64,000 nucleotides of DNA from Eledone cirrhosa. Lineage: Eukaryota. The stretch lies in assembly GCA_964016885.1 (NCBI GenBank), contig OZ024755.1, forward strand, positions 30,008,001-30,072,000, in the 5' to 3' direction. The notes under the pieces are model-generated. The model searched no databases. It was not told the DNA's origin and was given only the letters and a program-made list of their open reading frames with translations. Position numbers and translations under genes: made by a program. Positions 1,385-63,103 of this stretch are shown here, one piece after another (within the stretch, counting starts at the first letter, position 1; every line of letters starts with the position of its first letter).

Positions 1385-1813
1385 GCAGATTGGCGTCGGA
1401 CAACATTCTTCGCGGCATAGAGTTATGGGCTTTTACGTTCTGTGTTCAAGTCCCGCCGAGGTCAGCTTTGCCTTTCATCCTTACGGGGTCGATAAAATAA
1501 AGCACCAGTAATACACTGGAGTCAATTTAATCGACTTTTCCCTCCCCTTCAAACTATTGGCCTTGTGCCTAAAGTAGAAACAATTTTAAAAAGGGCGGTG
1601 GATTGGCAGTATCGGTAGAGAGTCGGACGCCATGCTTTGCAGCATAGAGTTACGACGCTTTATGATCTGAGTTCAAATGCCGCCGAAGTTAACTTTGCCT
1701 TTCATCCTTACGAGGTCGATAAAATAAAGTACCAGTCACGCACTGGGTTCGATTTAATTGACTTTCCCTTCCCCCCAAAATTGCTGGCCTTGTGCTTTTA
1801 TAAGAAACCATTA
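1385..1813 (+). mobile_element. Two tandem tRNA-derived SINE copies (family 1)
   Basis: A-box-like TGGCAGTATCGGTAG, B-box-like GAGTTCAAAT, conserved body TTTGCCTTTCATCCTTACGGGGTCGATAAAATAAAGTACCAGT, tail GGCCTTGTG...AGAAAC(A/C)ATT. Confidence 0.85.
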
Positions 1814-2944
1814 TAAACACTTTCTGTTCTTCTGATAGTATATAAATCAGATTTTATATTTAATTCACGGCTTATTTCCTTTGCTTTATTCATTTTTAAA
1901 TTTCTTACAATCACCTCAAATCTTTGATACTTCTTTATTTATAATCTACTCTACTTGAATGGTTATAGACTACGTGCCGAATTAGAAGCATTAGAGTGTC
2001 AGACGAAATGCTTTGTGGTAATCATTTCAAGCAGTAACTCCGGAAAGCACGTAACCCATTGTTTTATTTTATCCCCCATAGATTTCACTCACCAAAATTG
2101 TGTCACTCTAAACAAGCTCTCTTTAGTTAAGTCTATTTCTTTTATTTACTGTACACTTATTTGTATTGACTAAATGGCTTAAGTAATTATAATTATGTTT
2201 TATTTCGTCTGATATAAAGTTGATCTTTGGTTTGAGCTCAAATGTTATTCAATCTCTACAAATACGTATATGCTTAATCCCCACAAAGTTTTGACTTTTC
2301 GCCAATATTAGAAGTAAGTATTATTCTTATAGGTTAGTGGAGCTAATGAAGGATAATATATTTTCGGATATCTGGGCATCAACAAAGATCAGCTAACTAC
2401 GAGTTTATTCCAGGGGATGTGTTTATAGATAACAGACAGAAATCTCAGCTTGACAATGCTACCGGAAGATGGTAAGGGCTTATGGTTCGAGAGTAGCTCT
2501 ATAGGCATAGAAGTGCTCTCAACCAGGACTATTCGAGATGTACATAGAGTGATGAAACTGTTCCCCACGTCCATTTTCAATGTTCAATCATTGTTGACAT
2601 GTTGCCCAGTACTCCTCGCGACGCTGCTGTCTTTTGCTCTGGTGGTGACTTGGTTGTTCACCCCTTCCTTTATATTTTCTTTAATATTGCAACATTAAAG
2701 GAATATACCCTTCTGAAAGAACCGCGAGCAATTTATAATGTTATTTAAGCATTTGTAATGTTATTCATGTATATATTTAAATCATATTTGTTATGTTATC
2801 TCTACTGTAAATTTATTTATAGGCTTTGTATATATCATATGTGTTTATATTCTTAGTATTCCAATACTTATTTCAACAATTTTCTATTAAATATTTTATT
2901 CCAACGACACATCAGAGCATTTTCAAGCAATTCCCGTTGCTTAA

Positions 2945-3096
2945 TAATTATTTTAACTTTTGGCACAAGGCCAGCAATTATCCGAGAGTATCACTCGTAC
3001 TTTATTTTATCGACCCCGTAAGGATGAAAGGCAAAGTTAACCTCGGCGGGATTTGAACTCATACCACAAAGGGCCGTAACTCTTTGCTGTAAAGCA
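2945..3096 (-). mobile_element. SINE family 1, head removed by the duplication breakpoint
   Basis: Reverse complement of family 1 body; the paralog at 28450-28635 continues into the SINE head. Confidence 0.85.
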
Positions 3097-11123: not shown

Positions 11124-11330
11124 AATAGTTTCTACTTTTGGCACAAGGCCAGCAATTATCCAATACATTATTTTATCGACCCCGTAAGGATGAAAGGCAA
11201 AGTTAATCTCGACGGGATTTGAACTGAGATCGAGGTTAACTTTGCCTTTCACCCTTACGGGGTCGATAAAATAAAGTACCAGTAATCTACTGGGTAATTT
11301 GCTGGCCTTGTGCCAAATGTAGAAACAATT
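11124..11330. mobile_element. Inverted pair of SINE family 1 fragments
   Basis: Minus-strand copy 11124-11230 joined directly to plus-strand copy 11231-11330. Confidence 0.75.
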
Positions 11331-11402
11331 ATATATACATTTAATTAGAGGAAACTAAGAATGTAAATGAAGAAACTAAGAATGTAAATGGTTCTATGTT
11401 AC

Positions 11403-12543
11403 AGAGAAGAAATTCCAAACTTGAAAGCAGGGACTAGAAAGAAAGGGTCTCAAAGTCAACATGACAAAGACTAAGGACCTTGTAAGGACAAGAAAACAGA
11501 ACCCAGATCCCCTCAGGGAAATGGCCTTACTCACTATGTAGGAAAGGTGTAGGTAGGAATTCCATTCTCTGCACCAAATGCAAACAATGGGTACACAAGA
11601 GATGTAGCGGGATCTCAGGAAGCTTAATTAAGAATGTAGGCTTTACATGCAGCAGCTGTGCTGGGACAGCAAGCAGCAAACAGGAAACAAGTACCACCAA
11701 TCTCTGGGAGGGCTCTGTAGAAACAGTACACAGCTTCTGCTACCTAGTGACCGAATAATTAGCAGCGGAGTGGGTGTTCAGAAAGTACAATGACTAGGGT
11801 AAGAACGGGATGGAAGAAGTTCAGGGAGCTACTGCCACTGCTAGCTGCAAAAGGCTTCTCCCTCAAAATGAAAGGCAGACTGTATGATGCGTGTATCCGA
11901 ACAGCAAGGTGGAAGACTTACGTAGATTAGAGAGAAACGAAGCCTGCATGCTCCGATGGATGTGTAATAGTAATATACGCGAACGACAAAGCATAAATGA
12001 ATTGAGAGAGAGACTGAGCATAAGAGGAATCAAATGTTGTGTGCAGGAGAGGCGGATGCGTTGGTATGGACATGTGATGCGTATGAAGGATGACAGCTGC
12101 ATAAAAAGGTGCAGAGCACTAGAAGTCGATGGTAACCGCGGAGTGGGGAGACCCAAGAAGCCCTGGGATGAGGTGATAAAAGCCGACCTTACCCAATTAG
12201 ACCTCTCAAAGCGATGACACACGACCGTGACCTCTGGCGTCACGCAGTAATACAGAGTACCCAACCTCCCATGGGTACAAGCTGAAGCATATAGACAATA
12301 TGCCCCCACCCCTCCCACTGCAAGGTGGTCGTGGAGGTACCACGGCAAAAAAGCACCCAGCACTCACTGTAAATGAGGTTGGTGTTAGGAAGGGCATCCA
12401 GCTGTAGAAATCAAGCCAAAATCAGTTCCTGTATGAGCAAGGCATGGTCAGCCGACCAGACACTGCCCACAACAGGACAACCCGTCTAACCCATGCTAGC
12501 ATGGAAGAACGGACGTAAAACGGTGATGATGATGATGATGATG
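11403..12543 (+). mobile_element. 5'-truncated RTE-clade LINE with PHD-like finger, copy 1 (pseudogenised)
   Basis: RT C-terminal motifs RRMRWYGHVMRM and GRPKKPW; C4HC3-like NSILCTKCKQWVHKRCSG..FTCSSC; (GAT)n tail; ATGTTAC flanks both ends (11396, 12544). Confidence 0.9.
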
Positions 12544-12931
12544 ATGTTACGTAGGTTAAAGTGATATCGATCTAGTTAACACCGACCAACAGTTAAGTGT
12601 TGAAAAGGAACAAAGAATCGTAAGAAACTAAGAATGTAAATGGTTCTGTTACGTAGGTGAAAGTGATATCGATCTAGTTAACACCGATCAACAGTTAATC
12701 TTTGATTACGATGAAATCTAAAATAAATTCGTTCAAAACTTAAGTCGTCGTGCTTTACAATCGATAAAATAAAGCACCAGTAATCTACTGGGTAATTTGC
12801 TGGCCTTGTGCCAAATGTAGAAACAATTATATATACATTTAATTAGAGGAAACTAAGAATGTTAATGAAGTGTTGAAAAGGAACAAAGAAAGTAAATGAA
12901 GAAACTAAGAATGTAAATGGTTCTATGTTAC

Positions 12932-14099
12932 AGAGAAGAAATTCCAAACTTGAAAGCAGGGACTAGAAAGAAAGGGTCTCAAAGTCAACATGACAAAGAC
13001 TAAGGACCTTGTAAGGACAAGAAAACAGAACCCAGATCCCCTCAGGGAAATGGCCTTGCTCACTATGTAGGAAAGGTGTAGGTAGGAATTCCATTCTCTG
13101 CTCCAAATGCAAACAATGGGTACACAAGACATGTTACGGGATCTCAGGAAGCTTAATTAAGAATGTAGGCTTCACGTGCAGCAGCTGTGCTGGGACAGCA
13201 AGCAGCAAACAGGAAACAAGTACCACCAATCTCTGGGAGGGCTCTGTAGAAACAGTACACAGCTTCTGCTACCTAGTGACCGAATTAGCAGCGGAGGTGG
13301 GTGTTCAGAAAGTACAATGACTAGGGTAAGAACGGGATGGAAGAAGTTCAGGGAGCTACTGCCACTGCTAGCTGCAAAAGGCTTCTCCCTCAAAATGAAA
13401 GGCAGACTGTATGATGCGTGTATCCGAACAGCAATGTTACATGGTAGTTAGACCTGGGCGCTGAAGGTGGAAGACTTACGTAGATTAGAGAGAAACGAAG
13501 CCTGCATGCTCCCATGGATGTGTAATAGTAATATACGCGAACGACAAAGCATAAATGAATTGAGAGAGAGACTGAGCATAAGAGGAATCAAATGTTGTGT
13601 GCAGGAGAGGCGGATGCGTTGGTATGGACATGTGATGCGTATGAAGGATGACAGCTGCATAAAAAGGTGCAGAGCACTAGAAGTCGAGGGTAACCGCGGA
13701 GTGGGGAGACCCAAGAAGCCCTGGGATGAGGTGATAAAAGCCGACTCTACCCAATTACACCTCTCAAAGCGATGACACACGACCGTGACCTCTGGCGTCA
13801 CGCAGTAATACAGAGTACCCGACCTCCTATGGGTACAAGCTGAAGCATATAGACAATATGCCCCCACCCCCTCCCACTGCAAGGTGGTCGTGGAGGTGCC
13901 ACGGCAAAAAAGCACCGAGCACTCACTGTAAATGAGGTTGGTGTTAGGAAGGGCATCCAGCTGTAGAAATCAAGCCAAAATCAGTTCCTGTATGAGCAAG
14001 GCATGGTCAGCCGACCAGACACTGCCCACAACAGGACAACCCGTCTAACCCATGCTAGCATGGAAGAACGGACGTAAAACGGTGATGATGATGATGATG
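12932..14099 (+). mobile_element. 5'-truncated RTE-clade LINE, copy 2 (tandem duplicate)
   Basis: Near-identical to copy 1 including flanks; ORFs 13176..13451 and 13467..13775; in-frame stop after MLHGS. Confidence 0.9.
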
Positions 14100-14299
14100 A
14101 TGTTACGTTGGTTAAAGTGATATCGATCTAGTTAACACCGACCAACAGTTAAGTGTTGAAAAGGAACAAAGAATCGTAAGAAACTAAGAATGTAAATGGT
14201 TCTGTTACGTAGGTTAAAGTGATATCGATCTAGTTAACACCGATCAACAGTTAATCTTTGATTACGATGAAATCTAAAATAAATTCGTTCAAAACTTAA

Positions 14300-14390
14300 G
14301 TCGTCGAGCTTTACAATCGTGAGTTCGATTCTCAGACCGGACTTTGCGTTGTGTTCTTGAGCAAGACACTTTATTTCACGTTGATCCAAA
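14300..14390 (+). mobile_element. SINE family 2 fragment
   Basis: GTGAGTTCGATTC B box followed by GTGTTCTTGAGCAAGACACTTTATTTCACGTTG. Confidence 0.7.
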
Positions 14391-17300: not shown

Positions 17301-17549
17301 ACCCATTGAAGTAATGGGTGATAAAGTTTCAGTAGGAAACGTTTTTTATGTATTATTCTATAAACATATAATTATATTTTTGTTACATCTTACACTTCAG
17401 ATATTTTTTTTAACGTAAAGCACTGGATCTCAAATACTACAGTGGGTACATATAATAGTACAATGGGCACCCACTTGCCATAGGGCAACCTACCCAGTCT
17501 ACTACTGTATATATTATATATATATAATATAAAGATAAAGACAAATTCA

Positions 17550-19740
17550 CCTCATGCTGCCGGACGAAAAGGAAAGGCCTCCTCCTCTTTATTTCGACCG
17601 CGGATGGCCAACATAACCCCAACCCCAGCCCCTTCACCGCTCCCCAGCGTTCCCACCCACCAAACGCAATCCAAAACTTCAGAGTTGGTACCATGAATGT
17701 AGGCACCTTAAAAGGTCGCTCTAACGAGGTTGTAGAAATGCTTGATGTTTGCTGTATCCAAGAGACCAGGTGGAGGGGTGGGTCTGTTAGATTGATTGTG
17801 GGTAAAAAACGATGCTATAAGCTTTTCTGGGTGGGAAATGACAATGGGCTGGGTGGGGTAGGAATCATGTTAGCAGAAAAATGGGTAGATAAGATAATAG
17901 ACATAAATAGAGTGCACGACAGAATAATTAAAATAAGACTTGTCCTAAATAGAACTACTGTGACAGTAATATCTGCGTACACAACCCAATCCGGACTGCC
18001 TGGCGTTATAAAAGACAGATTCCATGAGACATTAATGCTCACTACCTCCCAAATAACTGACAGTGACTACATAATTATTGCTGGCGACCTGGACAACATT
18101 GTGATGGCTATGACGGAATCCATGGAGGCTATGTGTTTGGTACTAGAAATGAGGAAGGCTCCAGAATCCTGGAATTCTGTGACGCAAATAACCTAACTAT
18201 CTGTAACACTAACTTCAAAAAACGAGACAATCACTTGATCACCTATAGATCAGAGGAACACACCAGCCAGGTAGATTATATCCTTACCAGAAGACGTGAC
18301 AGAGTGTCTGTTGTAAACACTAAATCCCTCCCCCATGAAGAATGCACCTCCCAACATAGGCTCATAGTCAGGACGAGACGTACTCAACAACAGAGGAGGA
18401 CTATCCTCAGGAGAAAAATATGGAAGCTAAAGGACCCCACAGCCAGTAATAAATTTAAAAGCATATTACTTGATGCTTTTGACAGTAAGGAAGAGCAATT
18501 AGAGTCGTACAATATAGAGGAACAGTGGGAATTCCTGAAAGCTAACCTCCTGAAGGCGGCAAATGATGTCTGTGGCTGGAGCAGGCCTATAGGCAGGAGG
18601 AGAGTAACGTGGTAGTGGAACAGTAAGGTGGAGGAGTCAATTAAGGCCAAAAAGCAGGCTTGGAAAGTATGGCGGGATGGGGGAAGTAGAGAAGACTATC
18701 AAGTGGCTAGGAGACAAGTTTACTTCGCAAGAAGGGAAGCAGAGGAAAGAAAGTTCAAACATGTTCTACAACGCGAGGACCAAAAACGTGAGGTGTTCAG
18801 GATTGCTAGGCAATGTGTCAAGGAAAACCGTGATATTGTCGGGGAGAAGTGTGTCCTTAATGATGATGGTGTACTTGCCATCACCGACGTTGATAAGATG
18901 GTAGCTTGGAAGTGTCACTACGAAAGGCCTCTAAATGAGGAGAATAATTGGGAGAAAGACAGTCTCCCCCACATCGATCCAATAGAGGGACCAGCAGTGC
19001 TAGTTGAAGGTAGTATAATAAGTAAAGATATGAAGCAAAGATATGAAGATATAAGCAAAGATATGAAGACGGGTAAGACGGCTGGGCCTTCGGAAATAGA
19101 TGCTGAAATGCTGAAAGCATCTGGAACGGTGGGACACACTATGGTCACCCGGATAGTAAACCAAGTCATACAGAATGGGGTCGTTCCGAAGGACTGGCAT
19201 AGCAGCAGCATCATTAACTGCTACAAGGGTAAAGGAGATGCCCTAGATAGGGGTAACTATAGAGGCATTAAATTAATCGACCAGGTCATGAAGGTCACAG
19301 AAAAAGTAATAGCACATTGATCTAGATGAAATACAGTTCGGGTTTGTGTCAGGTGAAAGTACCACAGACGCTCTTTTCATTGTACGACATTTACAGGAGA
19401 AGTACCTAGCTAAAAGTAAACCCTTATACTTAGCTTTTGTTGACTTGGAGAAAGCCTTTGGCAGAGTCCCCCGTTCCATTATATGGTGGGCTCTTAGAAA
19501 ACTAGGTGTGAGAGCTATACAAGCCAGTCAGCAAGGTTAGAATTAACAACGAATATAGTGAAGAGTTTAGCATAAAAGTTGGTGTTCATCAGGGCTCCGT
19601 CCTTAACCCCCTCCTATTTATTATTGCCCTTCAGGCTATAACAGAGGAGTTCAAGACCGGCTGCCCATGGGAACTCCTATACGCAGATGATCTAACGCTC
19701 ATAGCTGAATCAATGGCCGAACTAGAGAAGAAATTCCAAA
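17550..19740 (+). mobile_element. RTE-clade LINE 5' part: AP endonuclease and RT, frameshifted
   Basis: GTMNVGTL, CIQETRW, IIAGD, QVDYIL and SQHRL (APE); YKGKGD..NYRGIKL, AFVDLEKAF, GVHQGSVL and LLYADD (RT). Confidence 0.92.
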
Positions 19741-25314: not shown

Positions 25315-25565
25315 ATAATGCAAATGGTTGGAGTTGTTTTCTTGCTAATTGATGTTTTATAACAAGTCAGCCTAGTCCCACAACACCTACGATAAGAAAT
25401 ATTCTAGCTGTCATAACACTTCTTTTCCTTCTTTCAGAACAAGGCGGTCTTGGATTGTATTGACTTTTGGCCTTTCTTATTTCCAATCATATTTGCTTTT
25501 CAATATTTTTACGAATGTTCAAATCCCGCCGAGGTTAACTTTGCCTTTCATCCTGTAGCGGATAA

Positions 25566-28500
25566 ATGTATTCTTTGATGGATGAATGATAAAAAGAATA
25601 ATACCAGAATTGTGATGTTGACTATGTTTATTTTACAATGTATTCTTTGATGGATGAATGATACATAGAATAATACCAGAACTGTGATGTTGACTATGTT
25701 TATTTTACAATGTATTCTTTGATGGATGAATGATAAAAAGAATAATGCCAGAATTGTGATGTTGACTATGTTTATTTTACAATAACAATATTCGCTTGTT
25801 GGTACATTGAGCATCGAATAACAAACTTGTGGCAGCAATTATCACTACATTATTTGTTGGCTAGGATTGGCAGTATCGGTAGAGGGTCGGACGCCATGCT
25901 TTGATGCATAGAGTTACGGCCCTTGCTATTCTGAGTTCAAATCCCGCCGAGGTTAACTTTGCCTTTCATCCTTACGGGGTCGATAAAATAAAGTACCAGT
26001 AATGTACTGGGTATTTTCTGGCCTTGTGCCAATAGTAGAAACAATTATTTGTTGGCTAGCTACTTCGAGCTAGCGTGTATGCATGTATCAATACAACGAC
26101 ATAATAGACGTGAAATAACAGGAAGACGACAGATTAGTGAAAAACATAAGTAAACCTAGTGCGTGTGTGTTTATGTTTGTCTATCCTGCCAGGAGAGAGA
26201 AAGGGTAAAAAGTCTGCTTGTGCCTACATCGCTATCTCTCACGGACTGCTTGTTGCTTCGGGGTCTCTCTGTCTGTGGCCGAGAAGGTGAGAACCAGTGA
26301 GGCCAGGAGAGAGAGATAGAGTGAAAGGTTTGCTACATCATTAACCTTAACACGGACTGCTTGCTTCGGTCTGGCTACTGGATTTCCCAAGTCCTTGTAT
26401 TTATAATAACCCTATAGCTAGAAGGATGTGTATATGGGGTTGATTTATGGGCAGCCATATGTGTTTCTTCTGTCTACAAGCTGGGGTCACAGGTCAAGTG
26501 GTATGTATGTTTATCATACTGTTTCTCGACAAGACAATCGTGGAAAACTCCCAACAATAGGTGGTCCCAGAGGCGAGAAATCTCAGATGCGGTTTCGACT
26601 CTTTGCCGGTAAAACATAGGAGTATTCCGTTACAATTCTTACGGGATCGATAAAATAAAGTATCAGTAATACACTGGGATAATTGCTGGCCTTGTGCCAC
26701 AAGTAGAAACAATATTTTTATGAATGCTAATTAGGTTTCATTGCTATTTCACGAAAAAATTCTTGACATTGATTTATGTCTGCCAAACTGCCTTAAAAAC
26801 ATAAATATTTTATTGACCTTGGCTGTATGAATACCAATGTCACCTTCATCCGAATTTGAATTCAGAATATAATTAGGTAGTCAAAGATGTCTACAAGTCG
26901 TGTTGGTTATAGATTTCATTATAAACACTTTCAGGGCAGCAGATTGGCGTCGGACAACATTCTTCGCGGCATAGAGATATGGGCTTTTACGTTCTGTGTT
27001 CAAGTCCCGCCGAGGTCAGCTTTGCCTTTCATCCTTACGGCGTCGATAAAATAAAGCACCAGTAATACACTGGGGTCAATTTAATCGACTTTTCCCTCCC
27101 CTTCAAACTATTGGCCTTGTGCCTAAAGTAGAAACAATTTTAAAAAGGGCGGTGGATTGGCAGTATCGGTAGAGAGTCGGACGCCATGCTTTGCAGCATA
27201 GAGTTACGACGCTTTATGATCTGAGTTGAAATGCCGCCGAAGTTAACTTTGCCTTTCATCCTTACGAGGTCGATAAAATAAAGTACCAGTCACGCACTGG
27301 GTTCGATTTAATTGACTCCCCCCCCCAAAAAAAAAAAAATTGCTGGCCTTGTGCTTTTATAAGAAACCATTATAAACACTTTCTGTCCTTCTGATAGTAT
27401 ATAAATCAGATTTTATATTTAATTCACGGCTTATTTCCTTTGCTTTATGCCTTTTTAAATTTCTTACAATCACCTCAAATCTTTGATACTTCTTTATTTA
27501 TAATCTACTCTACTTGAATGGTTATAGACTACGTGCCGAATTAGAAGCATTAGAGTGTCAGACGAAATGGTTTGTGGTAATCATTTCAAGCAGTAACCCC
27601 GGGAAGCACGTAACCCATTGTTTTGTCACTCTAAACAAGCTCTCTTTAGTTAAGTCTATTTCTTTTATTTACTGTACACTTATTTGTATTGACTAAACGG
27701 CTTAAGTAATTATAATTGTGTTTTATTTCGTCTGATTTGAGCTCAAATGTTATTCAATCTCTACAAATACGTATACGCTTAATCCCCACAAAATTTTGAC
27801 TTTTCGCCAATATTAGAAGTAAGTATTATTCTTATAGGTTAGTGGAGCTAAGGAAGGATAATATATTTTCGGATATCTGAACATCAACAAAGATCAGCTA
27901 ACTACGAGTTTATTCCAGGGGATGTGTTTATAGATAACAGACAGAAATCTCAGCTTGACAATGCTACCGGAAGATGGTAAGGGCTTATGGTTCGAGAGTA
28001 GCTCTATAGGCATAGAAGTGCTCTCAACCAGGACTATTCGAGATGTACATAGAGTGATGAAACTGTTCCCCACGTCCATTTTCAATGTTCAATCATTGCT
28101 GACATGTTGCCCAGTACTCCTCGCGACGCTGCTGTCTTTTGCTCTGGTGGTGACTCGGTTGTTCACCCCTTCCTTTATATTTTCTTTAATATTGCAACAT
28201 TAAAGGAATATACCCTTCTGAAAGAACCGCGAGCAATTTATAATGTTATTTAAGCATTTGTAATGTTATTCATGTATATATTTAAAACATATTTGTTATG
28301 TTATTTCTACTGTAAATTTATTTATAGGCTTTGTATATATCATATGTGTTTATATTCTTAGTATTCCAATACTTATTTAAAAAATTTTCTATTAAATATT
28401 TTATTCCAACGACACATCAGAGCATTTTCAAGCAATTCCCGTTGCTTAATAATTGTTTCGACTTTTGGCACAAGGCCAGCAATTATCCGAGAGTATCACT

Positions 28501-28601
28501 CGTACTTTATTTTATCGACCCCGTAAGGATGAAAGGCAAAGTTAACCTCGGCGGGATTTGAACTCATACCACAAAGAGCCGTAACTCTTTGCTGTAAAGC
28601 A
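25566..28601 (+). repeat. Segmental duplication copy B
   Basis: Matches 1-3096 with small indels and one extra SINE. Confidence 0.95.
25865..26043 (+). mobile_element. Young SINE family 1 insertion with 16-bp TSD
   Basis: ATTATTTGTTGGCTAG at 25849-25864 and 26044-26059; single empty site at 490-505 in copy A. Confidence 0.95.
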
Positions 28602-30784: not shown

Positions 30785-30950
30785 TTAAATATGTTATGAT
30801 GCAACACTGACTCTTTGTTCCTTTATTCTTATAGTATATATATATATATATATATATATATAATGTAGGAGGTGAGTTTTATTGTAGTACAATAAAGCAA
30901 TGCAGATATCGGATAAGAAGCACTCTACAGTTTGTGGGACTGGAGTATGC

Positions 30951-31477
<527 letters not shown>

Positions 31478-32340
31478 TGAATAAAGTTAATATATCTGAA
31501 GGTACACGGTACCCCCAGAAATACATAGGTTGTCTATGATTCAAGGTGGTTCTATGGTAATAATTTGATATACCAGAACTTAATATCAAGATAAGCAGAA
31601 CAAGCAAAATTTAACCAATTTTTCAAAATAAATCAAAATTAATTTACAATTAAAATTAATCAAAATTAAAAAATATAATATAAATATTTACCTATTCAGA
31701 TAGCCCTTACTGTACAGTTTCACTTTGCAAAACATTAGATATCACATGGATATTAATGGAAAAACAAAGATCATCAGAGAAGCATTTTCCTTTCCTAGGG
31801 TTAAAAACCTCAGGAACGATAAAATATATGACCTCGTCCCCAACTGACACGAGTCTAAAGGTCGTAAAAGTGACGCGTATGTTCGCTGGTGTAAAGTGAA
31901 GGCGGGAAATCGTAGACTTGTTGTCTATAGTCGCCACTAAAAAAAATAGCAGCTAGATAGAACGACAGATTTGTTCTCTACATAACGGAGAATATGAATA
32001 AAGTTAATATATCTGAAGGTACAAGGTACCCCCAGAAATACATAGGTTGTCTATGATTCAAGGTGGTTCTATGGTAATAATTTGATATACCAGAACTTAA
32101 TATCAAGATAAGCAGAACAAGCAAAATTTAACCAATTTTTCAAAATAAATCAAAATTAATTTACAATTAAAATTAATCAAAATTAAAAAATATAATATAA
32201 ATATTTACCTATTCAGATAGCCCTTGAATAGTAAATATTTATATTATATTTTTTAATTTTGATTAATTTTAATTGTAAATTAATTTTGATTTATTTTGAA
32301 AAATTGGTTAAATTTTGCTTGTTCTGCTTATCTTGATATT
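31478..32340 (-). mobile_element. Penelope-pLTR/retrozyme-like cassette: partial tandem repeat (517-bp offset) plus inverted end
   Basis: 31478-31708 is repeated at 31995-32225; 32226-32340 is an inverted partial copy; hammerhead motif at the repeat junction; (TA)n at the 3' end. Confidence 0.7.
31703..31783 (-). ncRNA. Type-I hammerhead ribozyme
   Basis: Minus strand GCTTCT-CTGATGA-TCTTTGT...GCAAAGT-GAAA-CTGTACAG-TA-AGGGC; palindromic stem III; GUA site; stem I weak. Confidence 0.6.
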
Positions 32341-32474
32341 TGTGTGTGTGTGTGTGGGGGGGGGGGGGGTATATTTACATACATATACTGGCGGAAACCC
32401 GGTATCTTCAACAAACCTATATTTTGAACCAAAAAATAACAACAAACTGTAGTGAATTGTTGTATTTATTGTTT

Positions 32475-32922
32475 ACTAGCCGAATTACCCGCGCTTTGCT
32501 GCGTTTCACACATAAAAAAGTAGAGGCCTTAACTAATCATTTTTGTTGTCTTAATTCTAGTGATGTTTTGCCATAGATAAAATGTCTAAATTAGCCAAAT
32601 TTTACTATAAAAGAGAGGTGCTTTTTTGTTGATTTACATTTAATTAATAGAAAAACCCCGAGGTTCCAATACTCATTATATACCTCCATTAGGGTGTCTT
32701 AATATTACTGAAATTTGCTGAAATTTTGTGAATATCACCTATGGTTTAAATTTCAGCATGGTTTTGTGTCCCCGGGGAACTCTTTCATTAAAATGAAATA
32801 TACTTATCCAAGTACCCTGGGCAATATAGTTTCAGAATATATATGATTATGGGGAGGGGGAGGGGGGGGGGTCTATCTTCAAAACCATAGGAGGAGTTCG
32901 TGAACAAACAAACAAACAGACA

Positions 32923-32930
<8 letters not shown>
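32475..32930 (-). mobile_element. Non-autonomous Helitron-like element
   Basis: Minus strand starts TATATAAAGTTGTCTGTTTGTTTG and ends CGCAGCAAAGCGCGGGTAATTCGGCTAG-T. Confidence 0.6.
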
Positions 32931-38184: not shown

Positions 38185-40178
38185 TATCTTTGATAGTCAT
38201 AATAAAAGGTTTAGACCTACCACCGTGTGTTTGTGAGGTGAAGAAAGAGTGTGGTTTGTCTTTCGGTACCTACTGAGATAATAGCCTTACAGTCACCCAG
38301 GCTCATTAACAAATCAACTTTTCCGAGTAAAATCTCATAGTGAGAATAGAGAAATTTCTATTATTTGCAAGCACTCTAGGAAACATCTATAGGCTCATCC
38401 TTTATATCGTATCTCCCTTTCGTCTATCTTTCTCTTTCTCCTTTCTCTCACTCTATCTCCGAATAAAAGCCTAACGTTTGAAACGTTAAGACCTTTTCTA
38501 CTACATCAAGTGTTAAACTAATATATATCTTCTTTGCTCTGTATTATTTCCCTACTTTGTTTCACTTCGTTGCCTTTTCGCATACACATTCACACACACA
38601 CACATTCATATGTATATAATCGCGCAACATACTATTAAATATACATAAATGTAAAGTTATGTATGTACGTGTGTATGTGTCTGTGTATGTGTTACGTAAA
38701 AGATCACGACATGGATGAACGTTCACTGGAAGCCATGATGTATAAATTACATTACTGTCCCGTGTGAAACCAAGAAGAATTATGAATATATCAAGAAAAC
38801 AACTTTGTAAAGAATACATTAGAAAACATAAAATGTATTTTACATGTTAGTTGATCTTTTTTCTTTATATATCACCCTGGTTGCCTGGGAAATATGAAAT
38901 AAATCGCATTTATATTTCTGTACTTCGGTGGTTTTCTGCTAGCATGTGTAGTGTGCATATTGATATTATACGCAAATAAATATACATGCATGTAGATATG
39001 ATATGTTAAATAAAATCGTAATTGAGAATATGCACAGAAAATGAAGAGAGACGGTGTAACACTCTCTTCTGTTATCAGTAAAGTAATCCATGATACATTA
39101 TAAAAAAGACGATATTATATATAAACTGCATTAGGGTGAAATTTTATGAAAACGAAAAAGGAGAAAATAAACGTTATATAACGACGCAAATATATGTTAA
39201 ACGGTTATATAAGCGATATAATACAGAGTCTATTATATCATAACCGGAAGTATTGATATTTGAAAATTTTAAAAGAAGTGAATCTTGAAATAAGCAAATA
39301 TTATTTATATTTAATCAAGAGTTACGAAATTTAGTAGATAAATTATGTAATATTCATTCATTATTTATTCAAAGTAATCCAACTTATTTTACAAACGGGA
39401 CAAAAAACTGTATTCAGGACACAGTCCCGCACTCCTCCCTTTATTATTTTATGATGAACAAGTACTAACGGAGAGAGAGTGGTTGGTGAGTGTAAAGATG
39501 GAAGTAATATAAAGTCCTATTGATTGGTAGATCAATTAAACAATAAGAGGTTTATATTTTGCTATATACATAGGCGGAACTGTCACTGGTTACCCGGTGA
39601 TAAACATTAGTAATGAATTGTATGTTTATCGATAATTATGTATAGTCGATTGGAAAACCATATACTTGGATTTCAATTATATCTGCACATATAGAACGCA
39701 TCATTTATTTCTCAATGACCTGAATCAGAATCATGGAATTTATGAATTTCAGAAACTTCTGAGCAGATACACAGAATGACAAAGACAGAAATGATGGCGA
39801 TATAAATATTAATAATTAGCTATATTGGTATACAGTTAAATATGTAAGGCTGTATGTATATATATGATATATATATATATATAGACCAAGTATTATGACG
39901 GTTGTGACCTGATCACGCCTGTCACCCCTTATTAGTAATCGGTATAGAATCGGCTATTTTTATGTCAGGAATATTTAGGATATAGTGCTGAAGGACGTAA
40001 TTGGTTTTATTCTATATCTAGTGGGGAATATATCTGGTAGGTTAGGCTCAGTTTATGCATCTGGAAAATATTTGCTTGAATTCCTGGATTTGTTTATGTT
40101 AGAACAATTAACAGTCATGTTTAAAGACATTTTTTCCAATTCCGCCCTCCCCCTAAGTCTATCTAATTTCTCATTCTT

Positions 40179-40214
40179 TCTTCTGATGAAGGACTAGCGT
40201 CCGAAACGTTAAGA
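40179..40214 (+). ncRNA. Minimal type-I hammerhead ribozyme
   Basis: TCTT-CTGATGA-A-GGAC(TAGC)GTCC-GAAA-CG-TT-AAGA; degenerate relatives at ~38455-38495 and ~62598-62635. Confidence 0.7.
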
Positions 40215-41439: not shown

Positions 41440-41526
<87 letters not shown>

Positions 41527-41689
41527 CGATATTAACAAATGGAAACTATATTTATAAAACCATATTTAGTTCATTATACATATTTGAAGGACACCAAGTT
41601 AAATTATGGTGTGCTCCCGGGAGCTTCCAACAGTAATGGTTGCATTCTTTAAGGGTATGTCTATTTATTTATAAAACTGATCTATATTA

Positions 41690-41754
41690 TATTTTATCTG
41701 ATGAAAGCACACCATAATTTAACTTGGTGTCATTGAAATATGTATAATGAAATA
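41690..41754 (+). ncRNA. Hammerhead ribozyme, family H1
   Basis: TATTTTAT-CTGATGA-stem II ACACCA/TGGTGT-GAAA-TATGTA-TA-ATGAAATA; truncated inverted copy at 41520-41615. Confidence 0.7.
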
Positions 41755-41881
41755 AATATGGTTTTATAAATATAGTTTCCATTTGTTAATATCGTATTTT
41801 TACTCCAAATATTTGTTGAGTGCTTTATATCAGTTATAAAAATATTTGCTTGTTGTATCCCAACAATTTAAATAGAACTTT

Positions 41882-41952
<71 letters not shown>

Positions 41953-44406: not shown

Positions 44407-45590
44407 CAAGCACTCTATGTACAGGTAGAGTGTATGTATTAAAAAGAACGATGAAGTTTCGTTTACAAGTATTTAGATTTTTATTGTGTATCGACTCGTT
44501 AGGTGCGTTTCGCAGAGGAGTGGTTCAAGGACACCCCTAGAAGCTATTATCGATCTGATCTTCAGATTGGCGATGCGACAAAAAATATACTGTTTGTTGT
44601 GATTTGTGACATGGAAGGTGTATATATAAGCATCTGCCTTTTTTTTGTGTGTGTGGGCGTGTGCGAGTGTAATATGTAGGGCAACTTTGTACGTATATAT
44701 ATACACATGTATATTCATGTGATTGGGTGTGTCTGTGTAACGATTCGTTACACAGACACACACAACGAATAATTCAAAACTCAAACGTGATTGTATAGTC
44801 CACAGCAAGAGAGATATAAGACAGCTCAGATTATATATATATATAAGTTTCAACGCACGTATTTAATGACTATGAAAACAATCTTTTCACCTCTATTAAT
44901 AGTTTTGTAGGCTATTAATTCCTCAATTCTCTATTATTTAATTCTTATAGTAATTGATACTTCATTACTGAATTAAGCTTTCATTATTTTTATATTGTTT
45001 TTGTTAATTATATTATTTATATTGTTATTGTTAATTGTATTGTTATTCTTAATATAATTGTTTCTATTTTTAGAATCTATTAATGTTATGCTTGAAATTG
45101 TTATTACTTCAATTAATAAGTATGATTAAATTGATGAGCTCTGGTTGTATTCCTTTAATGTTATTGAAGAGTTTAATATAGGTACTTTAAATTTTATGAG
45201 TCAAATAAATACTGTTTAGTTATATATAGCACATAGTATCGGCAGAGCGTCAGACACCATGTTTTACAGCATAGAGTTATGGCTCTTTACGTTCTCAGTT
45301 TAAATCCCTCCGAGGATAACTTTGCCTCTCATCCTTACGAGGTCGATAAAATAAAGTACCAGTAATGCATTGAAGTAATTGCTGGCTTTGTGCCAAAAGT
45401 AGAAATAATTATATTTGATCATCAATAAATTTTAATTTGTATGTTTAGTCTTCGAAAAAAGTTTTAACGTCTTACCAATTGTTTTTTAATTTTGTTTACA
45501 TTTTTATATTGGAGATGTCTGACATCGATGGTAGATATGTTATTAATATTTTTTTCATGGATTCTGATGAAATCAGTAGAGGAAAATAAT

Positions 45591-46607: not shown

Positions 46608-47202
46608 GTTGCCTTCGAAACACCGTGCGGCATAAATTCAGGCTGTTCAGTTTGTTTACAAACGAACAAAGCGGGCGCTATTATAAGCGTCCGCTAAACT
46701 GATGCGTACATATATGTATGTGTACCTGTATGTATATATGTATATATATATATATATATATGCATGCTACTGTACGTCTGTATGCATATATGTATGTACG
46801 TATACATGCATACTTACATTTAAGTAAGTGCCGTACTAAGAGTGAGAAATGAAATTTCGTTTTCATTTTATTACAACTCATCGTTTTCGGTGCGCCTGAC
46901 CGATTTAACTCACTCGATATGCAAATTAGGCTGCTCAGCCGTTAATTTTCATAAGGAAAGTATATACTTTCGAACGTTCAACTATCTGGCAGATGGGTAT
47001 ACGGTGCTGATGATAGCTAACAAGCTTGAAACTAGTACATCGTTCCTGTGTCAGTGTTGAACAAAAAGGTGACGTGGTTGCCTTAACACCGTGCGGCATT
47101 AATTCAGGCTGTTCAGTTTGTTTACAAACGAACAAAGCGGGTGCTATAATAAGCGTCCGCTAAACTGATGCGTACATATATGTATGTGTACCAGTATGTA
47201 TA

Positions 47203-47235
<33 letters not shown>

Positions 47236-47356
47236 GCATGCTACTGTACGTCTATATACATATATGTATGTACGTATACATACATACTTACATTTAAGTA
47301 AGTGCCGTACTAAGAGTGAGAAATGAAATTTCGTTTTCATTTTATTACAACTCATC
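46608..47356 (+). mobile_element. Penelope-pLTR/retrozyme-like partial tandem repeat ending in (TA)n
   Basis: 46619-46881 is repeated at 47084-47356; hammerhead in the intervening segment; relative at 49815-50030. Confidence 0.7.
47001..47043 (+). ncRNA. Minimal type-I hammerhead ribozyme
   Basis: ACGGTG-CTGATGA-T-AGCT(AACA)AGCT-T-GAAA-CTAG-TA-CATCGT; 6-bp stem I; palindromic stem III; GUA cleavage after 47037. Confidence 0.8.
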
Positions 47357-49324: not shown

Positions 49325-49707
49325 TATATTAATAAGAGGAATTCCAACTTTGTCTGATTTACTCGTTTTATTTACAATCCTTTAAAATATATAATGGTAT
49401 TATAATGAAATAGTATGATAGAATATTAAATTCTAAGTGTTAATTGAACAAGTACTTTCATGCTTTCGCAATCTTCAGGTTCATAATATGTGGTGACAGA
49501 CAAGTTTGCAATTTTCAACTGTTGAAAATTGCAAACTTGACTGTCACCACATATTATGAACCTGAAGATTGCGAAAGCATGAAAGTACTTGTTCAATTAA
49601 CACTTAGAATTTAATATTCTATCATACTATTTCATTATAATACCATTATATATTTTAAAGGATTGTAAATAAAACGAGTAAATCAGACAAAGTTGGAATT
49701 CCTCTTA

Positions 49708-49715
<8 letters not shown>
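49325..49715. repeat. ~390-bp palindrome between (TA)n tracts
   Basis: Centre TTTTCAAC-T-GTTGAAAA at 49520. Confidence 0.95.
49557..49595 (+). ncRNA. Minimal type-I hammerhead ribozyme (mirror copy on minus strand 49445-49483)
   Basis: TGAAC-CTGAAGA-T-TGC(GAAA)GCA-T-GAAA-GTAC-TT-GTTCA; GNRA-capped stem II; palindromic stem III. Confidence 0.78.
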
Positions 49716-50108: not shown

Positions 50109-50417
50109 TATGCGATATATGTATATATATATATGGCAAGTAAGTATGTTTTGAAACAGTGAGCGAGTTTGAAATTAGAAAATATATAGCTTTCACCGTA
50201 TTTTTAACTAAAGGAATTTTACCTTGATAACGGGGTTTATAACCCTCAGATAAATCTGAGGGTTATAAACCCCGTTATCAAGCTAAAATTCCTTTAGTTA
50301 AAAATACGGTGAAAGCTATATATTTTCTAATATATATATATATAGGCGATATATATATAGGGTATATATATATTTTAATTCAAATATTAACAAAATAGAT
50401 ATTCTTGTGATCAAGTA

Positions 50418-54789: not shown

Positions 54790-55875
54790 GATTCACGTCA
54801 CCGGGTAGTGAAGTTCTTGTTGATGATAAGATCAATTTCAGGTTAGCTAAAGCAAATCCAGCTTTTGAAAGACTGCGTCCTAAAGTCTGAAATCGTATAT
54901 GCATTAGAACCACTACCAAACAGTCATAATCTTGGTACAAGTATATGTCTACGTGAGAGGAACATCTGCATTATTTCCACTACACTTGTATTTACAGATT
55001 GTAGCACATTAAGTAACAAGACAACATCGCAGACACCCGGAGGTACCGCAACTGGAGAAACTTACTTTAACACAAACCCTGTTGACCCCCCCCCCCCCCC
55101 ACACACACACACATACACAAACGCTGGACATGTTATGTCCTCCGCAAATTGTCTCCGCTATAGTGAGTTCACTATAGAAATGATACAAGCCTCAACATCG
55201 CAGACACCCGGAGGTACCGCAACTGGAGAAACTTACTTTAACACAAACCCTGTTGACCCCCCCCCCCCCACACACACACATACACAAACGCTGGACATGT
55301 TATGTCCTCCGCAAATTGTCTCCGCTATAGTGAGTTCACTATAGAAATGATACAAGCCTCAACATCGCAGACACCCGGAGGTACCGCAACTGGAGAAACT
55401 TACTTTAACACAAACCCTGTTGACCCCCCCCCCCCCACACACACATACATACACAAACGCTGGACGACATGTTATATCCTCCGCAAATTGTCTCCGCTAT
55501 AGTGAGTTCACTATAGAAATGATACAAGCCTGTGGCCAGAAAGTATAACATGAACTTAACATTGAACACCACGGATATTGATATAAAGTTCCGAGAAGAA
55601 CTTGTTCAAAACACGTCCCCATGGCGCACACATATTCATAAATGTGCACTCTTCACAAGATACACTCATCCAGACAGCGGAAACCATGCGTCAGCTCAGC
55701 AAAGTCCATTTATTTGGCAGCTCAAATGATGCCACAAAATACAAATGCCTAATGTGTGGTTGCCTACGTCAGCACCTGAATCAGATTCATCAGGCATCTA
55801 CGGACACACAAAAGCTAATTAATCAAGTAACCAAGGTCATGGTTTTAATTGATTACCATTAGATGAACAACCGGC
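54790..55875 (+). mobile_element. Decayed RTE-like LINE 3' part with internal ~170-bp triplication (55022-55531)
   Basis: CAACATCGCAGACACCCGG...GATACAAGCCT occurs three times; AGHV and YSEF motifs; terminal CxxC. Confidence 0.55.
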
Positions 55876-58329: not shown

Positions 58330-61300
58330 TTCTACCTTGATGATAATTCTACCTGTGTAATGACGGTGACCATGGTGATAATTCTATCTGTGTAATGACA
58401 GTAGCCTTGGTGATAATTCTATCTGTGTAATGACAGTAGCCTTGATGATAATTCTACCTGTGTAATGACAGTGACATGGTGATAATTCTACCTGTGTAAT
58501 GACAGTGACATGGTGATAATTCTACCTGTGTAATGACGGTGACCATGGTGATAATTCTACCTGTGTAATGACGGTAGCCTTGGTGATAATTATACCTGTG
58601 TAATGACGGTAGCCTTGGTGATAATTCTATCTGTGTAATGACAGTAGCCTTGGTGATAATTCTACCTGTGTAATGACAGTGACATGGTGATAATTCTACC
58701 TGTGTAATGACAGTGACATGGTGATAATTCTACCTGTGTAATGACGGTGACCATGGTGATAATTCTACCTGTGTAATGACAGTAGCCTTGGTGATAATTC
58801 TACCTGTGTAATGACAGTGACATGGTGATAATTCTACCTGTGTAATGACGGTGACATGGTGATAATTCTACCTTTGTAATGACGGTAGCCTTGGTGATAA
58901 TTCTACCTGTGTAATGACAGTGACATGGTGATAATTCTACCTGTGTAATGACGGTGACCATGGTGATAATTCTACCTGTGTAATGACGGTGACCATGGTG
59001 ATAATTCTACCTGTGTAATGACGGTGACCATGGTGATAATTCTACCTGTGTAATGACGGTGACCATGGTGATAATTCTATCTGTGAAATGACGGTGACCA
59101 TGGTGATAATTCTACCTGTGTAATGACGGTAACCATGGTGATAATTCTACCTGTGTAATGACAGTGACATGGTGATAATTCTACCTGTGTAATGACAGTG
59201 ACATGGTGATAATTCTACCTGTGTAATGACGGTGACCATGGTGATAATTCTACCTGTGTAATGACAGTAGCCTTGGTGATAATTCTACCTGTGTAATGAC
59301 GGTGACCATGGTGATAATTCTACCTGTGTAATGACAGTGACATGGTGATAATTCTACCTGTGTAATGACAGTGACATGGTGATAATTCTACCTGTGTAAT
59401 GACGGTGACGATGGTGATAATTCTACCTGTGTAATGACAGTGACCATGGTGATAATTCTACCTGTGTAATGACGGTGACCATGGTGATAATTCTACCTGT
59501 GTAATGACGGTAGCCTTGGTGATAATTCTACCTGTGTAATGACGGTAGCCTTGGTGATAATTCTATCTGTGTAATGACAGTAGCCTTGGTGATAATTCTA
59601 TCTGTGTAATGACAGTAGCCTTGGTGATAATTCTACCTGTGTAATGACGGTGACCATGGTGATAATTCTACCTGTGTAATGACAGTAGCCTTGGTGATAA
59701 TTCTACCTGTGTAATGACGGTGACCATGGTGATAATTCTACCTGTGTAATGACGGTAGCCTTGGTGATAATTCTATCTGTGTAATGACAGTAGCCTTGGT
59801 GATAATTCTACCTGTGTAATGACGGTAGCCTTGGTGATAATTCTACCTGTGTAATGACGGTAGCCTTGGTGATAATTCTATCTGTGTAATGACAGTAGCC
59901 TTGGTGATAATTCTACCTGTGTAATGACGGTAGCCTTGGTGATAATTCTACCTGTGTAATGACGGTGACCATGGTGATAATTCTACCTGTGTAATGACAG
60001 TGACATGGTGATAATTCTACCTGTGTAATGACAGTGACATGGTAATAATTCTACCTGTGTAATGACGGTGACATGGTGATAATTCTACCTTTGTAATGAC
60101 GGTAGCCTTGGTGATAATTCTACCTGTGTAATGACAGTGACATGGTGATAATTCTACCTGTGTAATGACGGTGACCATGGTGATAATTCTACCTGTGTAA
60201 TGACGGTGACCATGGTGATAATTCTACCTGTGTAATGACGGTGACCATGGTGATAATTCTATCTGTGTAATGACGGTGACCATGGTGATAATTCTACCTG
60301 TGTAATGACGGTGACCATGGTGATAATTCTACCTTTGTAATGACGGTAGCCTTGGTGATAATTCTACCTGTGTAATGACAGTGACATGGTGATAATTCTA
60401 CCTTTGTAATGACAGTGACCATGGTGATAATTCCACCTTTGTAATGACAGTCGTCTTGGTGATAATTCTACCTGTGTAATGACAGTGACCATGGTGATAA
60501 TTCTACCTTTGTAATGACAGTGACCATGGTGATAATTCTACCTGTGTAATGACAGTGACCATGGTGATAATTCTACCTTTGTAATGACAGTGACCATGGT
60601 GATAATTCTACCTGTGTAATGACAGTGACCATGGTGATAATTCTACCTGTGTAATGACAGTGACCATGGTGATAATTCTACCTTTGTAATGACGGTGACC
60701 TTGGTGATAATTCTATCTGTGTAATGACAGTGACATGGTGATAATTCTACCTTTGTAATGACAGTGACATGGTGATAATTCTACCTTTGTAATGACAGTG
60801 ACCATGGTGATAATTCTACCTTTGTAATGACGGTGACCTTGGTGATAATTCTACCTGTGTAATGACAGTGACCATGGTGATAATTCTACCTTTGTAATGA
60901 CAGTGACCATGGTGATAATTCTACCTTTGTAATGGCAGTGACCTTGGTGATAATTTTACCTTTGTAATGACAGTGAACATGGTGATAATTCTACCTTTGT
61001 AATGACAGTGACCATGGTGATAATTCTACCTGTGTAATGACGGTGACCATGGTGATAATTCTACCTTTGTAATGACGGTGACCATGGTGATAATTCTACC
61101 TTTGTAATGACGGTGACCATGGTGATAATTCTACCTTTGTAATGACAGTGACATGGTGATAATTCTACCTTTGTAATGACAGTGACCATGGTGATAATTC
61201 TACCTTTGTAATGACAGTCGCCTTGGTGATAATTCTACCTTTGTAATGACGGTGACCATGGTGATAATTCTACCTTTGTAATGACAGTGACCATGGTGAT

Positions 61301-62036
61301 AATTCTACCTTTGTAATGACGGTGACCATGGTGATAATTCTACCTGTGTAATGACAGTGACCATGGTAATAATTCTGCCTTTGTAATGACAGTCGCCTTG
61401 GTGATAATTCTACTTTTGTAATGACGGTGACCATGGTGATAATTCTACCTGTGTAATGACGGTGACCATGGTGATAATTCTACCTGTGTAATGACAGTGA
61501 CCATGGTAATAATTCTACCTTTGTAATGACGGTGACCATGGTGATAATTCTACCTTTGTAATGACAGTGACATGGTGATAATTCTACCTTTGTAATGACA
61601 GTGACCATGGTGATAATTCTACCTTTGTAATGACAGTGACCATGGTGATAATTCTACCTTTGTAATGACAGTGACCATGGTGATAATTCTACCTTTGTAA
61701 TGACAGTGACCATGGTGATAATTCTACCTTTGTAATGACGGTGACCTTAGTGATAATTAAACCTGTGTAATGACAGTGACATGGTGATAATTCTACCTTT
61801 GTAATGACGGTGACCATGGTGATAATTCTACCTCTGTAAGGGTGGTGACTATGATAATTCTACCTGTGTAATGACAGTGACATGGTGATAATTCTACCTT
61901 TGTAATGACGGTGACCATGGTGATAATTCTACCTCTGTAAGGGTGGTGACTATGATAATTCTACCTTTGTAATGACAGTGACCATGGTGATAATTCTACC
62001 TGTGTAATGACGGTGACCATGGTGATAATTCTACCA
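58330..62036. repeat. 34-35 bp satellite array (roughly 105 units)
   Basis: Consensus GGTGATAATTCTACCTGTGTAATGAC(A/G)GTGACCAT head-to-tail with no unique spacers. Confidence 0.97.
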
Positions 62037-62894: not shown

Positions 62895-63103
62895 TAATTA
62901 TATATATTTCAAGGGTACCAACATTTTGGTACGCTTTCACCAGATAAAATACGAAGTGTGTTTTATAAATTTTGATATAACCAAGGATAACTTGAACCGT
63001 TAAGGTATATTCTCCTTGGTTATGTCACAATTTATAAAACACACTTCGTATTTTATCTGATGATAACGTACCAACATTTTGTTACCCTTGAAATATATAT
63101 AAT
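62895..63103. repeat. Imperfect palindrome with H1 hammerhead motif in each arm, right arm cut by a SINE (63099-63282, minus)
   Basis: TATTTTAT-CTGATGA..GAAA-TATATA-TA at 63049-63103; mirror copy has CTGGTGA. Confidence 0.75.

What the first reader, a model, noticed from the sequence alone, without database searches (positions are those of the whole stretch)
31478..32340. Repeat boundary coincides with the predicted ribozyme cleavage site, defining a 517-nt monomer
Seen: on the minus strand the hammerhead at 31703-31783 should cleave GUA/AGGGCUA. The upstream direct-repeat copy begins at AAGGGCTATCTG (32225), within 1 nt of that site and exactly 517 bp away. It is preceded by an inverted partial copy (32226-32340). 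Inference: the insertion was copied from an RNA whose 5' end was made by self-cleavage, or from a 517-nt circular RNA read for more than one round as proposed for retrozymes. This would be a genomic footprint of in vivo ribozyme activity.
Basis: partly seen in the sequence, partly recalled or inferred. Interest (0 to 1): 0.8.

Follow-up and report, generated by a model that had tools for sequence, protein, structure and literature searches.

The report
Retrozyme copy ending at ribozyme cut
This is one young insertion of a 517-base non-coding jumping repeat with a predicted self-cutting RNA motif; its inner end falls on the predicted cut, which possibly records one cut RNA, but sister copies in sequencing reads and four similar insertions nearby run straight through that site.

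Summary
The minus strand holds 1.45 units of a 517-nt non-coding repeat with a type I hammerhead (cut predicted at 31708/31707), ending in (TA)n and joined to an inverted arm (32225/6-32340). The upstream copy starts at the cut or one base before it; base 32225 fits both arms. The motif looks real and selected: its helix III palindrome and the 10.1-11.1 pair covary in sister copies. The anatomy is that of a metazoan non-LTR retrozyme with Penelope-type ends. The inference is only partly supported. A circle explains the more-than-unit length but not a stop at the cut on the second pass; a tandem transcript cut at only its upstream ribozyme does. It is one case: 73 reads cover position -6 against 87 at +6, no pile of ends shows at the cut, and 4 of 5 inverted insertions in the window join 41-164 nt upstream of their cut. 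Chance per insertion is 0.4-1%. No genome was held and no RNA run was listed. The scan has noted the same coincidence many times in this and other genomes, with mixed verdicts. Odds that cleavage made this junction: about 45%.

The parts
31478..32224 (-). Long arm: one whole 517-nt unit plus 230 nt of the next (747 nt), non-coding
   Evidence: longest ATG frame 21 aa sense, 47 aa antisense, unit read as a circle
31708..32224 (-). 517-nt monomer, cut site to cut site (+1 = 32224); GC 32%; circular fold -115.5 kcal/mol, z -3.9 against 40 dinucleotide shuffles
31698..31787 (-). Type I hammerhead: stem I (8 of 10 pairs), intact core, U10.1-U11.1 mismatch, long stem II, 10-nt palindromic helix III; predicted cut between 31708 and 31707
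   Evidence: covariation in reads
31992..32225 (-). Upstream repeat copy (pseudo-LTR-like); begins at the cut site or one base before it; lacks the ribozyme core
31475..31708 (-). Downstream repeat copy; its last 3-4 bases (ATAT) are shared with the (TA)n tract
32225..32225 (.). Ambiguous junction base: A17 of the direct copy or +10 of the inverted arm
32226..32340 (+). Inverted short arm, monomer +11 to +126, one G missing near the joint
32115..32214 (-). Predicted long AU-rich hairpin (+11 to about +110); the short arm's inner end lies at its 5' foot and at the 3' foot of ribozyme stem I
31368..31477 (.). (TA)n tract at the 3' end of the long arm (likely target); it is also the tail of the neighbouring palindromic hammerhead element
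32341..32369 (.). (TG)n then G-run beyond the short arm; no target-site duplication can be read

Best explanation
This is a young insertion of a multi-copy, non-coding 517-nt repeat with a predicted dimer-type hammerhead, likely pasted into a TA microsatellite by a Penelope-type reverse transcriptase, and its inner end likely marks the 5' end of a tandem transcript that had been cut at its upstream ribozyme but not at the inner one. Steps: (1) shown: 1.45 units, inverted arm, (TA)n end, intact core, covarying helix III. (2) inferred: a tandem source array is transcribed; two neighbouring hammerheads pair through their palindromic helix III; the upstream site is cut, its 5' fragment leaves, and the remaining single hammerhead has no partner and stays uncut. 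(3) inferred from PLE biochemistry: reverse transcription starts inside the RNA (+230 to +233 of the second unit, where AUAU can pair with the target's TA end), runs 747 nt and falls off the cut end. (4) inferred: the short arm (+126 back to +10/+11) comes from priming by the other DNA end on the same RNA or from fold-back of the cDNA, and the two are joined head to head. The class (retrozyme / non-autonomous Penelope-type element) I hold at about 0.9; that cleavage made this junction at about 0.45. It is a minority outcome, not the family's rule.
For: Junction fits +1 exactly if T32225 is given to the inverted arm; chance 0.4-1% per insertion. Helix III does not fold alone (+1.5 kcal/mol) but gives a -13.4 kcal/mol duplex, the dimer design described in PMC4209133 and PMC3088659. 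Sister copies keep the palindrome through double changes (ACUGAUCAGU, ACCGAUCGGU), restore G10.1-C11.1 (run X4: 31770 change in depth 25.3 of 33.1, 31722 change in 15.7 of 23.5) and mostly carry bases at 31699 and 31702 that improve stem I, so the fold is under selection. U10.1-U11.1 is reported in natural hammerheads (PMC3088659). Partial tandem plus 5' inverted copy and microsatellite targets are the described PLE insertion form (PMC8557442); internal initiation at two sites and extension of both DNA strands are shown for a PLE in vitro (PMC11167929). The inner junction 31708/31707 is seamless.
Against: One case. Raw reads of sister copies: 87 cover +6 (31702) and 73 cover -6 (31713) in runs X7, X8, X9, a loss of 16%; the same tables show 73 to 72 over the next 11 nt and a larger loss near 31734, so the step is not exceptional. 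No pile of ends and no listed loose end at 31703-31712 (13 of 36 loose-end rows not shown). The pile at 31697 is diverged sister hammerheads that continue through the cut. Four X8 reads that stop near 31706 fit natural read ends; four X7 reads that stop between 31708 and 31713 stay unexplained. In the window 4 of 5 inverted insertions join upstream of their cut (-164, -70, -41/-124, -92). T32225 fits read-through by one base equally well. PMC11167929 found cleavage unnecessary for insertion in vitro and no RNA reads starting or ending at the cut; 10.64898/2026.07.22.740005 saw cleavage in 1 of 9 retrozyme dimers in vitro. No cleavage, transcript or partner PLE was shown here.
Confidence: 0.45

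Rival explanations
1. Same element and same insertion route, but the RNA was uncut: reverse transcription stopped or switched template here by chance or by stalling at the ribozyme fold, one base past the site, with 1-2 nt microhomology.
For: Other inverted insertions in the window join at scattered places; most reads pass the site. The short arm ends at the foot of stem I and of the long hairpin, so structure alone could bring stops to this area. T32225 can pair with A32215 and T32224 with G32216 (sequence). With 1757 windows of this genome noted and about 5 such insertions each (my extrapolation from this window), 34-85 chance coincidences are expected. A different repeat also joins another hammerhead within 3 nt of its cut, on the side cleavage of a template's 5' end cannot explain (63099-63104).
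Against: Only 0.4-1% per insertion under a uniform model; both arms end within 11 nt of the cut.
Confidence: 0.35
2. The template was a 517-nt circle read 1.45 times; synthesis paused at the ligation junction on the second pass.
For: Non-LTR retrozymes accumulate as circles in coral and mussel (PMC7229834); the unit folds well as a circle (z -3.9); seamless inner junction; circle model proposed in PMC4209133.
Against: The enzyme passed the same junction once without error; an RNA already in an RNA:DNA hybrid cannot fold the ribozyme, and a monomer has no dimer partner, so nothing in the model picks this site unless the junction is chemically unusual. The two copies differ at one base (weak).
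Confidence: 0.12
3. Two fully cut linear monomers were copied in series: the enzyme jumped from the 5' end of one to the 3' end of another (or the same), then ran off at the next 5' end.
For: Predicts a stop exactly at the cut; would allow the one-base difference between copies.
Against: Needs an exact jump onto a cyclic-phosphate end (from established ribozyme chemistry) without added or lost bases; predicts many solo copies starting at +1, which the reads do not show.
Confidence: 0.05
4. The junction arose later at the DNA level (deletion or fold-back repair) or in the assembly.
For: AT-rich repeats and hairpins can be mis-assembled; no read spanning this junction was seen.
Against: Arms are 99-100% identical and the form recurs in other families in the window and in the PLE literature.
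Confidence: 0.03

Closest known systems
Metazoan non-LTR retrozymes (Cervera and De la Pena 2020, PMC7229834; Li, Clavereau, Pollet 2026, 10.64898/2026.07.22.740005)
   Same: Non-coding head-to-tail unit with a type I hammerhead, GC under 50%, no LTR signals seen, multi-copy, predicted highly paired circle; 517 nt lies within the 51-972 bp range of Li et al.
   Different: Longer than the 150-450 bp of PMC7229834; only one complete hammerhead here, so not 'active' by Li et al.'s criterion of two; circle and cleavage untested; in the parts I read neither paper reports where genomic copies end relative to the cut.
Penelope-like elements with hammerheads in pseudo-LTRs (PMC4209133; PMC8557442; PMC11167929)
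   Same: Partial tandem giving direct repeats, adjacent 5' inverted copy, microsatellite target without readable duplication, palindromic helix III, 3' end inside the unit downstream of the cut.
   Different: No RT or GIY-YIG frame in the unit; no partner PLE found among 34 of the window's 62 stop-to-stop frames scanned; distance between the two outer ends is about 105 nt against the 30-40 bp tail described.
Ribozyme-defined 5' junctions of R2 (HDV-like; PMC3774820) and Perere-3 (twister variant; PMC8501958)
   Same: The idea that a genomic 5' junction records ribozyme cleavage of the template.
   Different: There it is the rule for full-length copies and cleavage was assayed; here it is one junction, a different ribozyme class, and most copies read through.

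Membership tests
Type I hammerhead ribozyme | Core C3 U4 G5 A6 N7 G8 A9, G12 A13 A14, A15.1-U16.1, H17 | tested here: met
   consensus as given in PMC3088659
Type I hammerhead ribozyme | Stems I, II, III around the core, stem I open | tested here: met
   stem I 8 of 10 pairs, stem II 6 pairs after the first position plus an inner hairpin, helix III palindrome; covariation in reads
Type I hammerhead ribozyme | Paired 10.1-11.1 | tested here: not met
   U-U in this copy; G-C or G-U in sister copies; U-U is a reported natural variant
Type I hammerhead ribozyme | Self-cleavage after H17 | not testable with these tools
   needs an in vitro assay
Metazoan non-LTR retrozyme | Head-to-tail non-coding unit of a few hundred bases with type I hammerhead, GC under 50% | tested here: met
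   517 nt, GC 32%, no long frame
Metazoan non-LTR retrozyme | Multi-copy in the genome | tested here: met
   many variant contigs and reads in runs X1, X2, X4, X7-X9; these runs are not shown to be the window's own species; one copy in the window
Metazoan non-LTR retrozyme | At least two consecutive complete hammerheads (active copy, Li et al.) | tested here: not met
   one complete motif; upstream copy lacks the core. Lowers 'active source copy', not 'family offspring'
Metazoan non-LTR retrozyme | Expressed as linear and circular monomer RNA | not testable with these tools
   no RNA holder listed
Penelope-like element insertion | Partial tandem (pseudo-LTR) with adjacent 5' inverted copy | tested here: met
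   form as in PMC8557442
Penelope-like element insertion | Microsatellite target, duplication often unreadable | tested here: met
   (TA)n and (TG)n flanks, no exact duplication
Penelope-like element insertion | Fixed 3' ends (two RT start sites, tail) | tested here: inconclusive
   outer ends +230/233 and +126 in this copy; one read group in X7 joins TA repeats near the same +230 site; no family-wide count
Autonomous PLE | RT plus GIY-YIG frame | tested here: not met
Ribozyme-defined 5' junction (R2 / Perere-3 type) | 5' ends of copies pile up at the cleavage site | tested here: not met
   as a rule not met; a small excess is untested because few independent loci were sampled

The most novel reading that the evidence does not exclude
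Hammerhead cleavage happens in the germ line of this animal and half-cut tandem transcripts are real templates for Penelope-type enzymes, leaving a small, sharp excess of genomic copies that begin at the cut nucleotide. Insertion junctions would then be a read-out of hammerhead activity in vivo for Penelope-type elements, where function of the ribozyme is still open and the one in vitro study found uncut RNA to be the main template.
Probability: 0.4. Interest if true: 0.55.

Novelty: new member of a known kind. Interest (0 to 1): 0.3.

Why it matters
The role of hammerheads in Penelope-type elements is unresolved (PMC8557442, PMC11167929). If ends pile up at the cut across many copies, genomes alone would show that these ribozymes cut in vivo and would tell linear half-cut from circular templates. 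This single junction only points to that test; the element itself is of a known kind.

Tried and rejected
Own-genome search and file: no genome held, so no genome-wide count of ends. Rfam: no hammerhead family hit; miRNA hits are AT-rich hairpin noise far below gathering scores. No RNA holder listed; no evidence either way on expression. Metagenome and viral contigs: 0 matches in 3 scans. Apparent piles of read ends at 31664 and 32082/3 first looked like element ends; they sit on AATT words (31664, 32079) in RAD libraries and I read them as restriction ends with ligated foreign fragments (that AATT is a RAD enzyme site is recalled, not from a call). The tenfold depth step at 31697 in contigs looked like a shared boundary; loose ends show diverged sister hammerheads instead. 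Contig data have low power for single-locus junctions (10 of 130 and 12 of 143 records only partly laid). Weak in-window matches at 39534-39635 and 44986-45116 looked like AT-rich noise on inspection, with no hammerhead seen. A plain alignment of 10 window hammerheads was uninformative. MFE folds do not form ribozyme stem I, as expected for a weak dimer-type motif; not counted for or against. The tandem at 46608-47356 (469-nt period, upstream copy starting at +40 of its cut) was left out of the 5-insertion count because it has no inverted arm and a second copy starts at the same place, so that end may be fixed for another reason; the palindrome at 50174-50331 was left out because no hammerhead was found in it. 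The four control insertions were found through their retained cores, which biases them towards joints upstream of the cut.

Full report
Setting. The window is animal-like DNA: AT-rich, full of (TA)n tracts and dispersed repeats. No genome is held. Earlier AI notes call related windows cephalopod; I did not test that.

Observation. All coordinates hold. A 234-nt direct repeat (31475-31708 / 31992-32225, spacing 517, one difference) and an inverted arm (32225/6-32340) are present. On the minus strand the insertion reads: inverted arm, then a 517-nt unit starting AGGGC at 32224 (+1), then 230 more bases of a second unit, then (TA)n. The hammerhead has an intact core, stem I with 8 of 10 pairs, a U-U at 10.1-11.1 and a 10-nt palindromic helix III, with the cut predicted at 31708/31707. 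My descriptor gives 3 hits in the window and 0 in 40 shuffles; Rfam does not see the motif. The base at 32225 belongs equally to the direct copy (A17) and to the inverted arm (+10), so the long arm ends on the cut or one base past it. The arm lacks one G seven bases from the joint. No target duplication is readable.

Is the ribozyme real? Nine public runs were listed, six holding the stretch or part of it, none on record as RNA. I laid six of the nine (X1, X2, X4, X7, X8, X9). They are not shown to be the window's own species; most raw reads are 90-95% alike or less. Sister copies change helix III while keeping it palindromic (ACUGAUCAGU from the paired changes at 31713/31714; ACCGAUCGGU from loose ends), show G10.1-C11.1 in X4, and mostly carry bases at 31699 and 31702 that improve stem I. 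Helix III alone costs +1.5 kcal/mol, as a duplex it gives -13.4 (variants -13.6, -16.6). This is the dimer design of PMC4209133 (parts 1-2 of 4 read) and PMC3088659 (passages, which also reports U10.1-U11.1 in nature). Activity is untested; Li et al. saw cleavage in 1 of 9 dimers (10.64898/2026.07.22.740005, parts 1-3 of 5).

What it is. A non-coding (longest ATG frame 21 aa sense), 32% GC, multi-copy unit with a type I hammerhead is a metazoan non-LTR retrozyme (PMC7229834: passages and sections 13, 14, 17). Partial tandem, adjacent inverted copy and microsatellite target are the insertion form of Penelope-like elements (PMC8557442, passages). A purified PLE starts reverse transcription inside the RNA at two sites and extends both DNA strands (PMC11167929, parts 1-2 of 4), which fits a 3' end at +230/233 and a second arm ending at +126. 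No PLE protein turned up in 34 of the window's 62 stop-to-stop frames scanned against Pfam (most of the rest lie in simple repeats or overlap scanned frames). With one complete hammerhead this copy could not release the monomer by double cleavage: it is likely a dead-end offspring.

Do ends pile up at the cut? Not as a rule. In raw reads 87 cover +6 and 73 cover -6 (X7 28/23, X8 28/21, X9 31/29); these come from few loci (up to 16 start places per variant). One search lists no pile of ends and no loose end at 31703-31712 (23 of 36 loose-end rows shown). The depth step at 31697 is made by diverged hammerheads that continue through the site. Four X8 reads ending near 31706 match natural read ends (109 loose letters plus about 41 laid); four X7 reads lost between 31708 and 31713 I could not resolve. 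In the window, four other hammerhead insertions with inverted arms join upstream of their cuts: -164 (31160/1), -70 (49520), -41 and -124 (41615/41623), -92 (62990/63010). So 1 of 5 joins at the cut; by chance that is 2-5%, and the controls are biased towards upstream joints. Over 1757 noted windows of this genome tens of chance hits are expected if this window's density is typical, and readers flag exactly those.

Mechanism. A circle gives more-than-unit copies but no reason to stop at the junction on the second pass, after passing it once without error. A tandem transcript cut only at its upstream site gives exactly this template: after the first cut in a double hammerhead the 5' fragment can leave and the inner motif lacks a partner (inference from the dimer model). 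Run-off at that end, then joining to a second arm primed from the other DNA end or made by fold-back, yields the structure seen. Against it, uncut RNA was the dominant substrate in vitro and no RNA reads began or ended at the cut in anole. The rival of nearly equal weight is a stop by chance or at the fold: the short arm ends at the foot of stem I and of a long hairpin (+11, P unpaired 0.01) and the joint has 1-2 nt of microhomology. I put half-cut template 0.45, chance or stall 0.35, circle 0.12, jump between monomers 0.05, artefact 0.03.

Known and new. Ribozyme-defined 5' junctions are established for R2 (PMC3774820, abstract) and Perere-3 (PMC8501958, abstract). I found no paper that maps ends of retrozyme or PLE genomic copies against the hammerhead cut in eight searches (listings only, apart from the papers named); supplements were not opened and subscription papers on Penelope and Terminon ends are outside the library, so it may be in print. 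Earlier notes of this scan report the same coincidence in at least ten other findings, some with a small excess at the cut, some with none; they are unchecked and concern other families. Verdict: a real, well-formed new member of a known kind; the footprint claim is an even bet for this junction and not the family's rule. Interest 0.3.

Noticed in passing
window 30946-31375: Near-perfect palindrome with 215-nt arms, each with a type I hammerhead (cores 31270 + and 31051 -, palindrome AUGCGCAU); folds back 164 nt upstream of its cut and ends in the same (TA)n tract that holds the finding's element.
   Followed up: partly
window 37447, 41698, 42512, 50476, 50765, 63057: A second hammerhead family with at least six copies; 3' ends fall at about +50 or +170, and the insertion at 41521-41918 uses one of each in its two arms, as two-ended priming would give.
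   Followed up: partly
window 63099-63104: The forward arm of a hammerhead element stops at +3 of its predicted cut and runs, through 6 shared bases, into the 5' end of an abundant SINE-like repeat; the rest of the arm was not found downstream. Chance, deletion, or a template jump at a cut 3' end.
   Followed up: partly
window 46608-47356: Partial tandem of a roughly 469-nt unit with a hammerhead at 47007 (U-U at 10.1-11.1, palindrome ACUAGU); upstream copy starts at +40, as does a solo relative at 49807; a related hammerhead lies at 63867 on the minus strand.
   Followed up: partly
window 49325-49715: Palindrome with 195-nt arms, each with a CUGAAGA hammerhead (cut after 49590), ending in (TA)n on one side.
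   Followed up: partly
window 40183, 62579, 38433, 43853, 9043, 44565: Further hammerhead candidates, including a minimal PLE-type motif at 40183 with two decayed relatives.
   Followed up: no
window 50174-50331: Palindrome with 78-nt arms and a 2-nt loop, no hammerhead found in it.
   Followed up: no
window 32470-32930: Repeat that by recall resembles short Helitron-associated elements (start TACTAGC..., end ...ACAGACAACTTTATATA); not tested.
   Followed up: no
window 17528-18612 and 13015-13317: Broken frames with endonuclease/exonuclease/phosphatase hits (likely a decayed LINE) and a PHD-finger frame.
   Followed up: no
window 58334-62035; 1-424 and 25565-25783; 55022-55531; 11263-14319: Tandem arrays of about 35/70, 72, 171 and 1498-nt period; 490-3096 recurs at 26044-28601 at 96% identity.
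   Followed up: no
window 31507 / 32024: The only difference between the two repeat copies sits in the 3-nt loop of a predicted strong hairpin just upstream of the 3' end.
   Followed up: no
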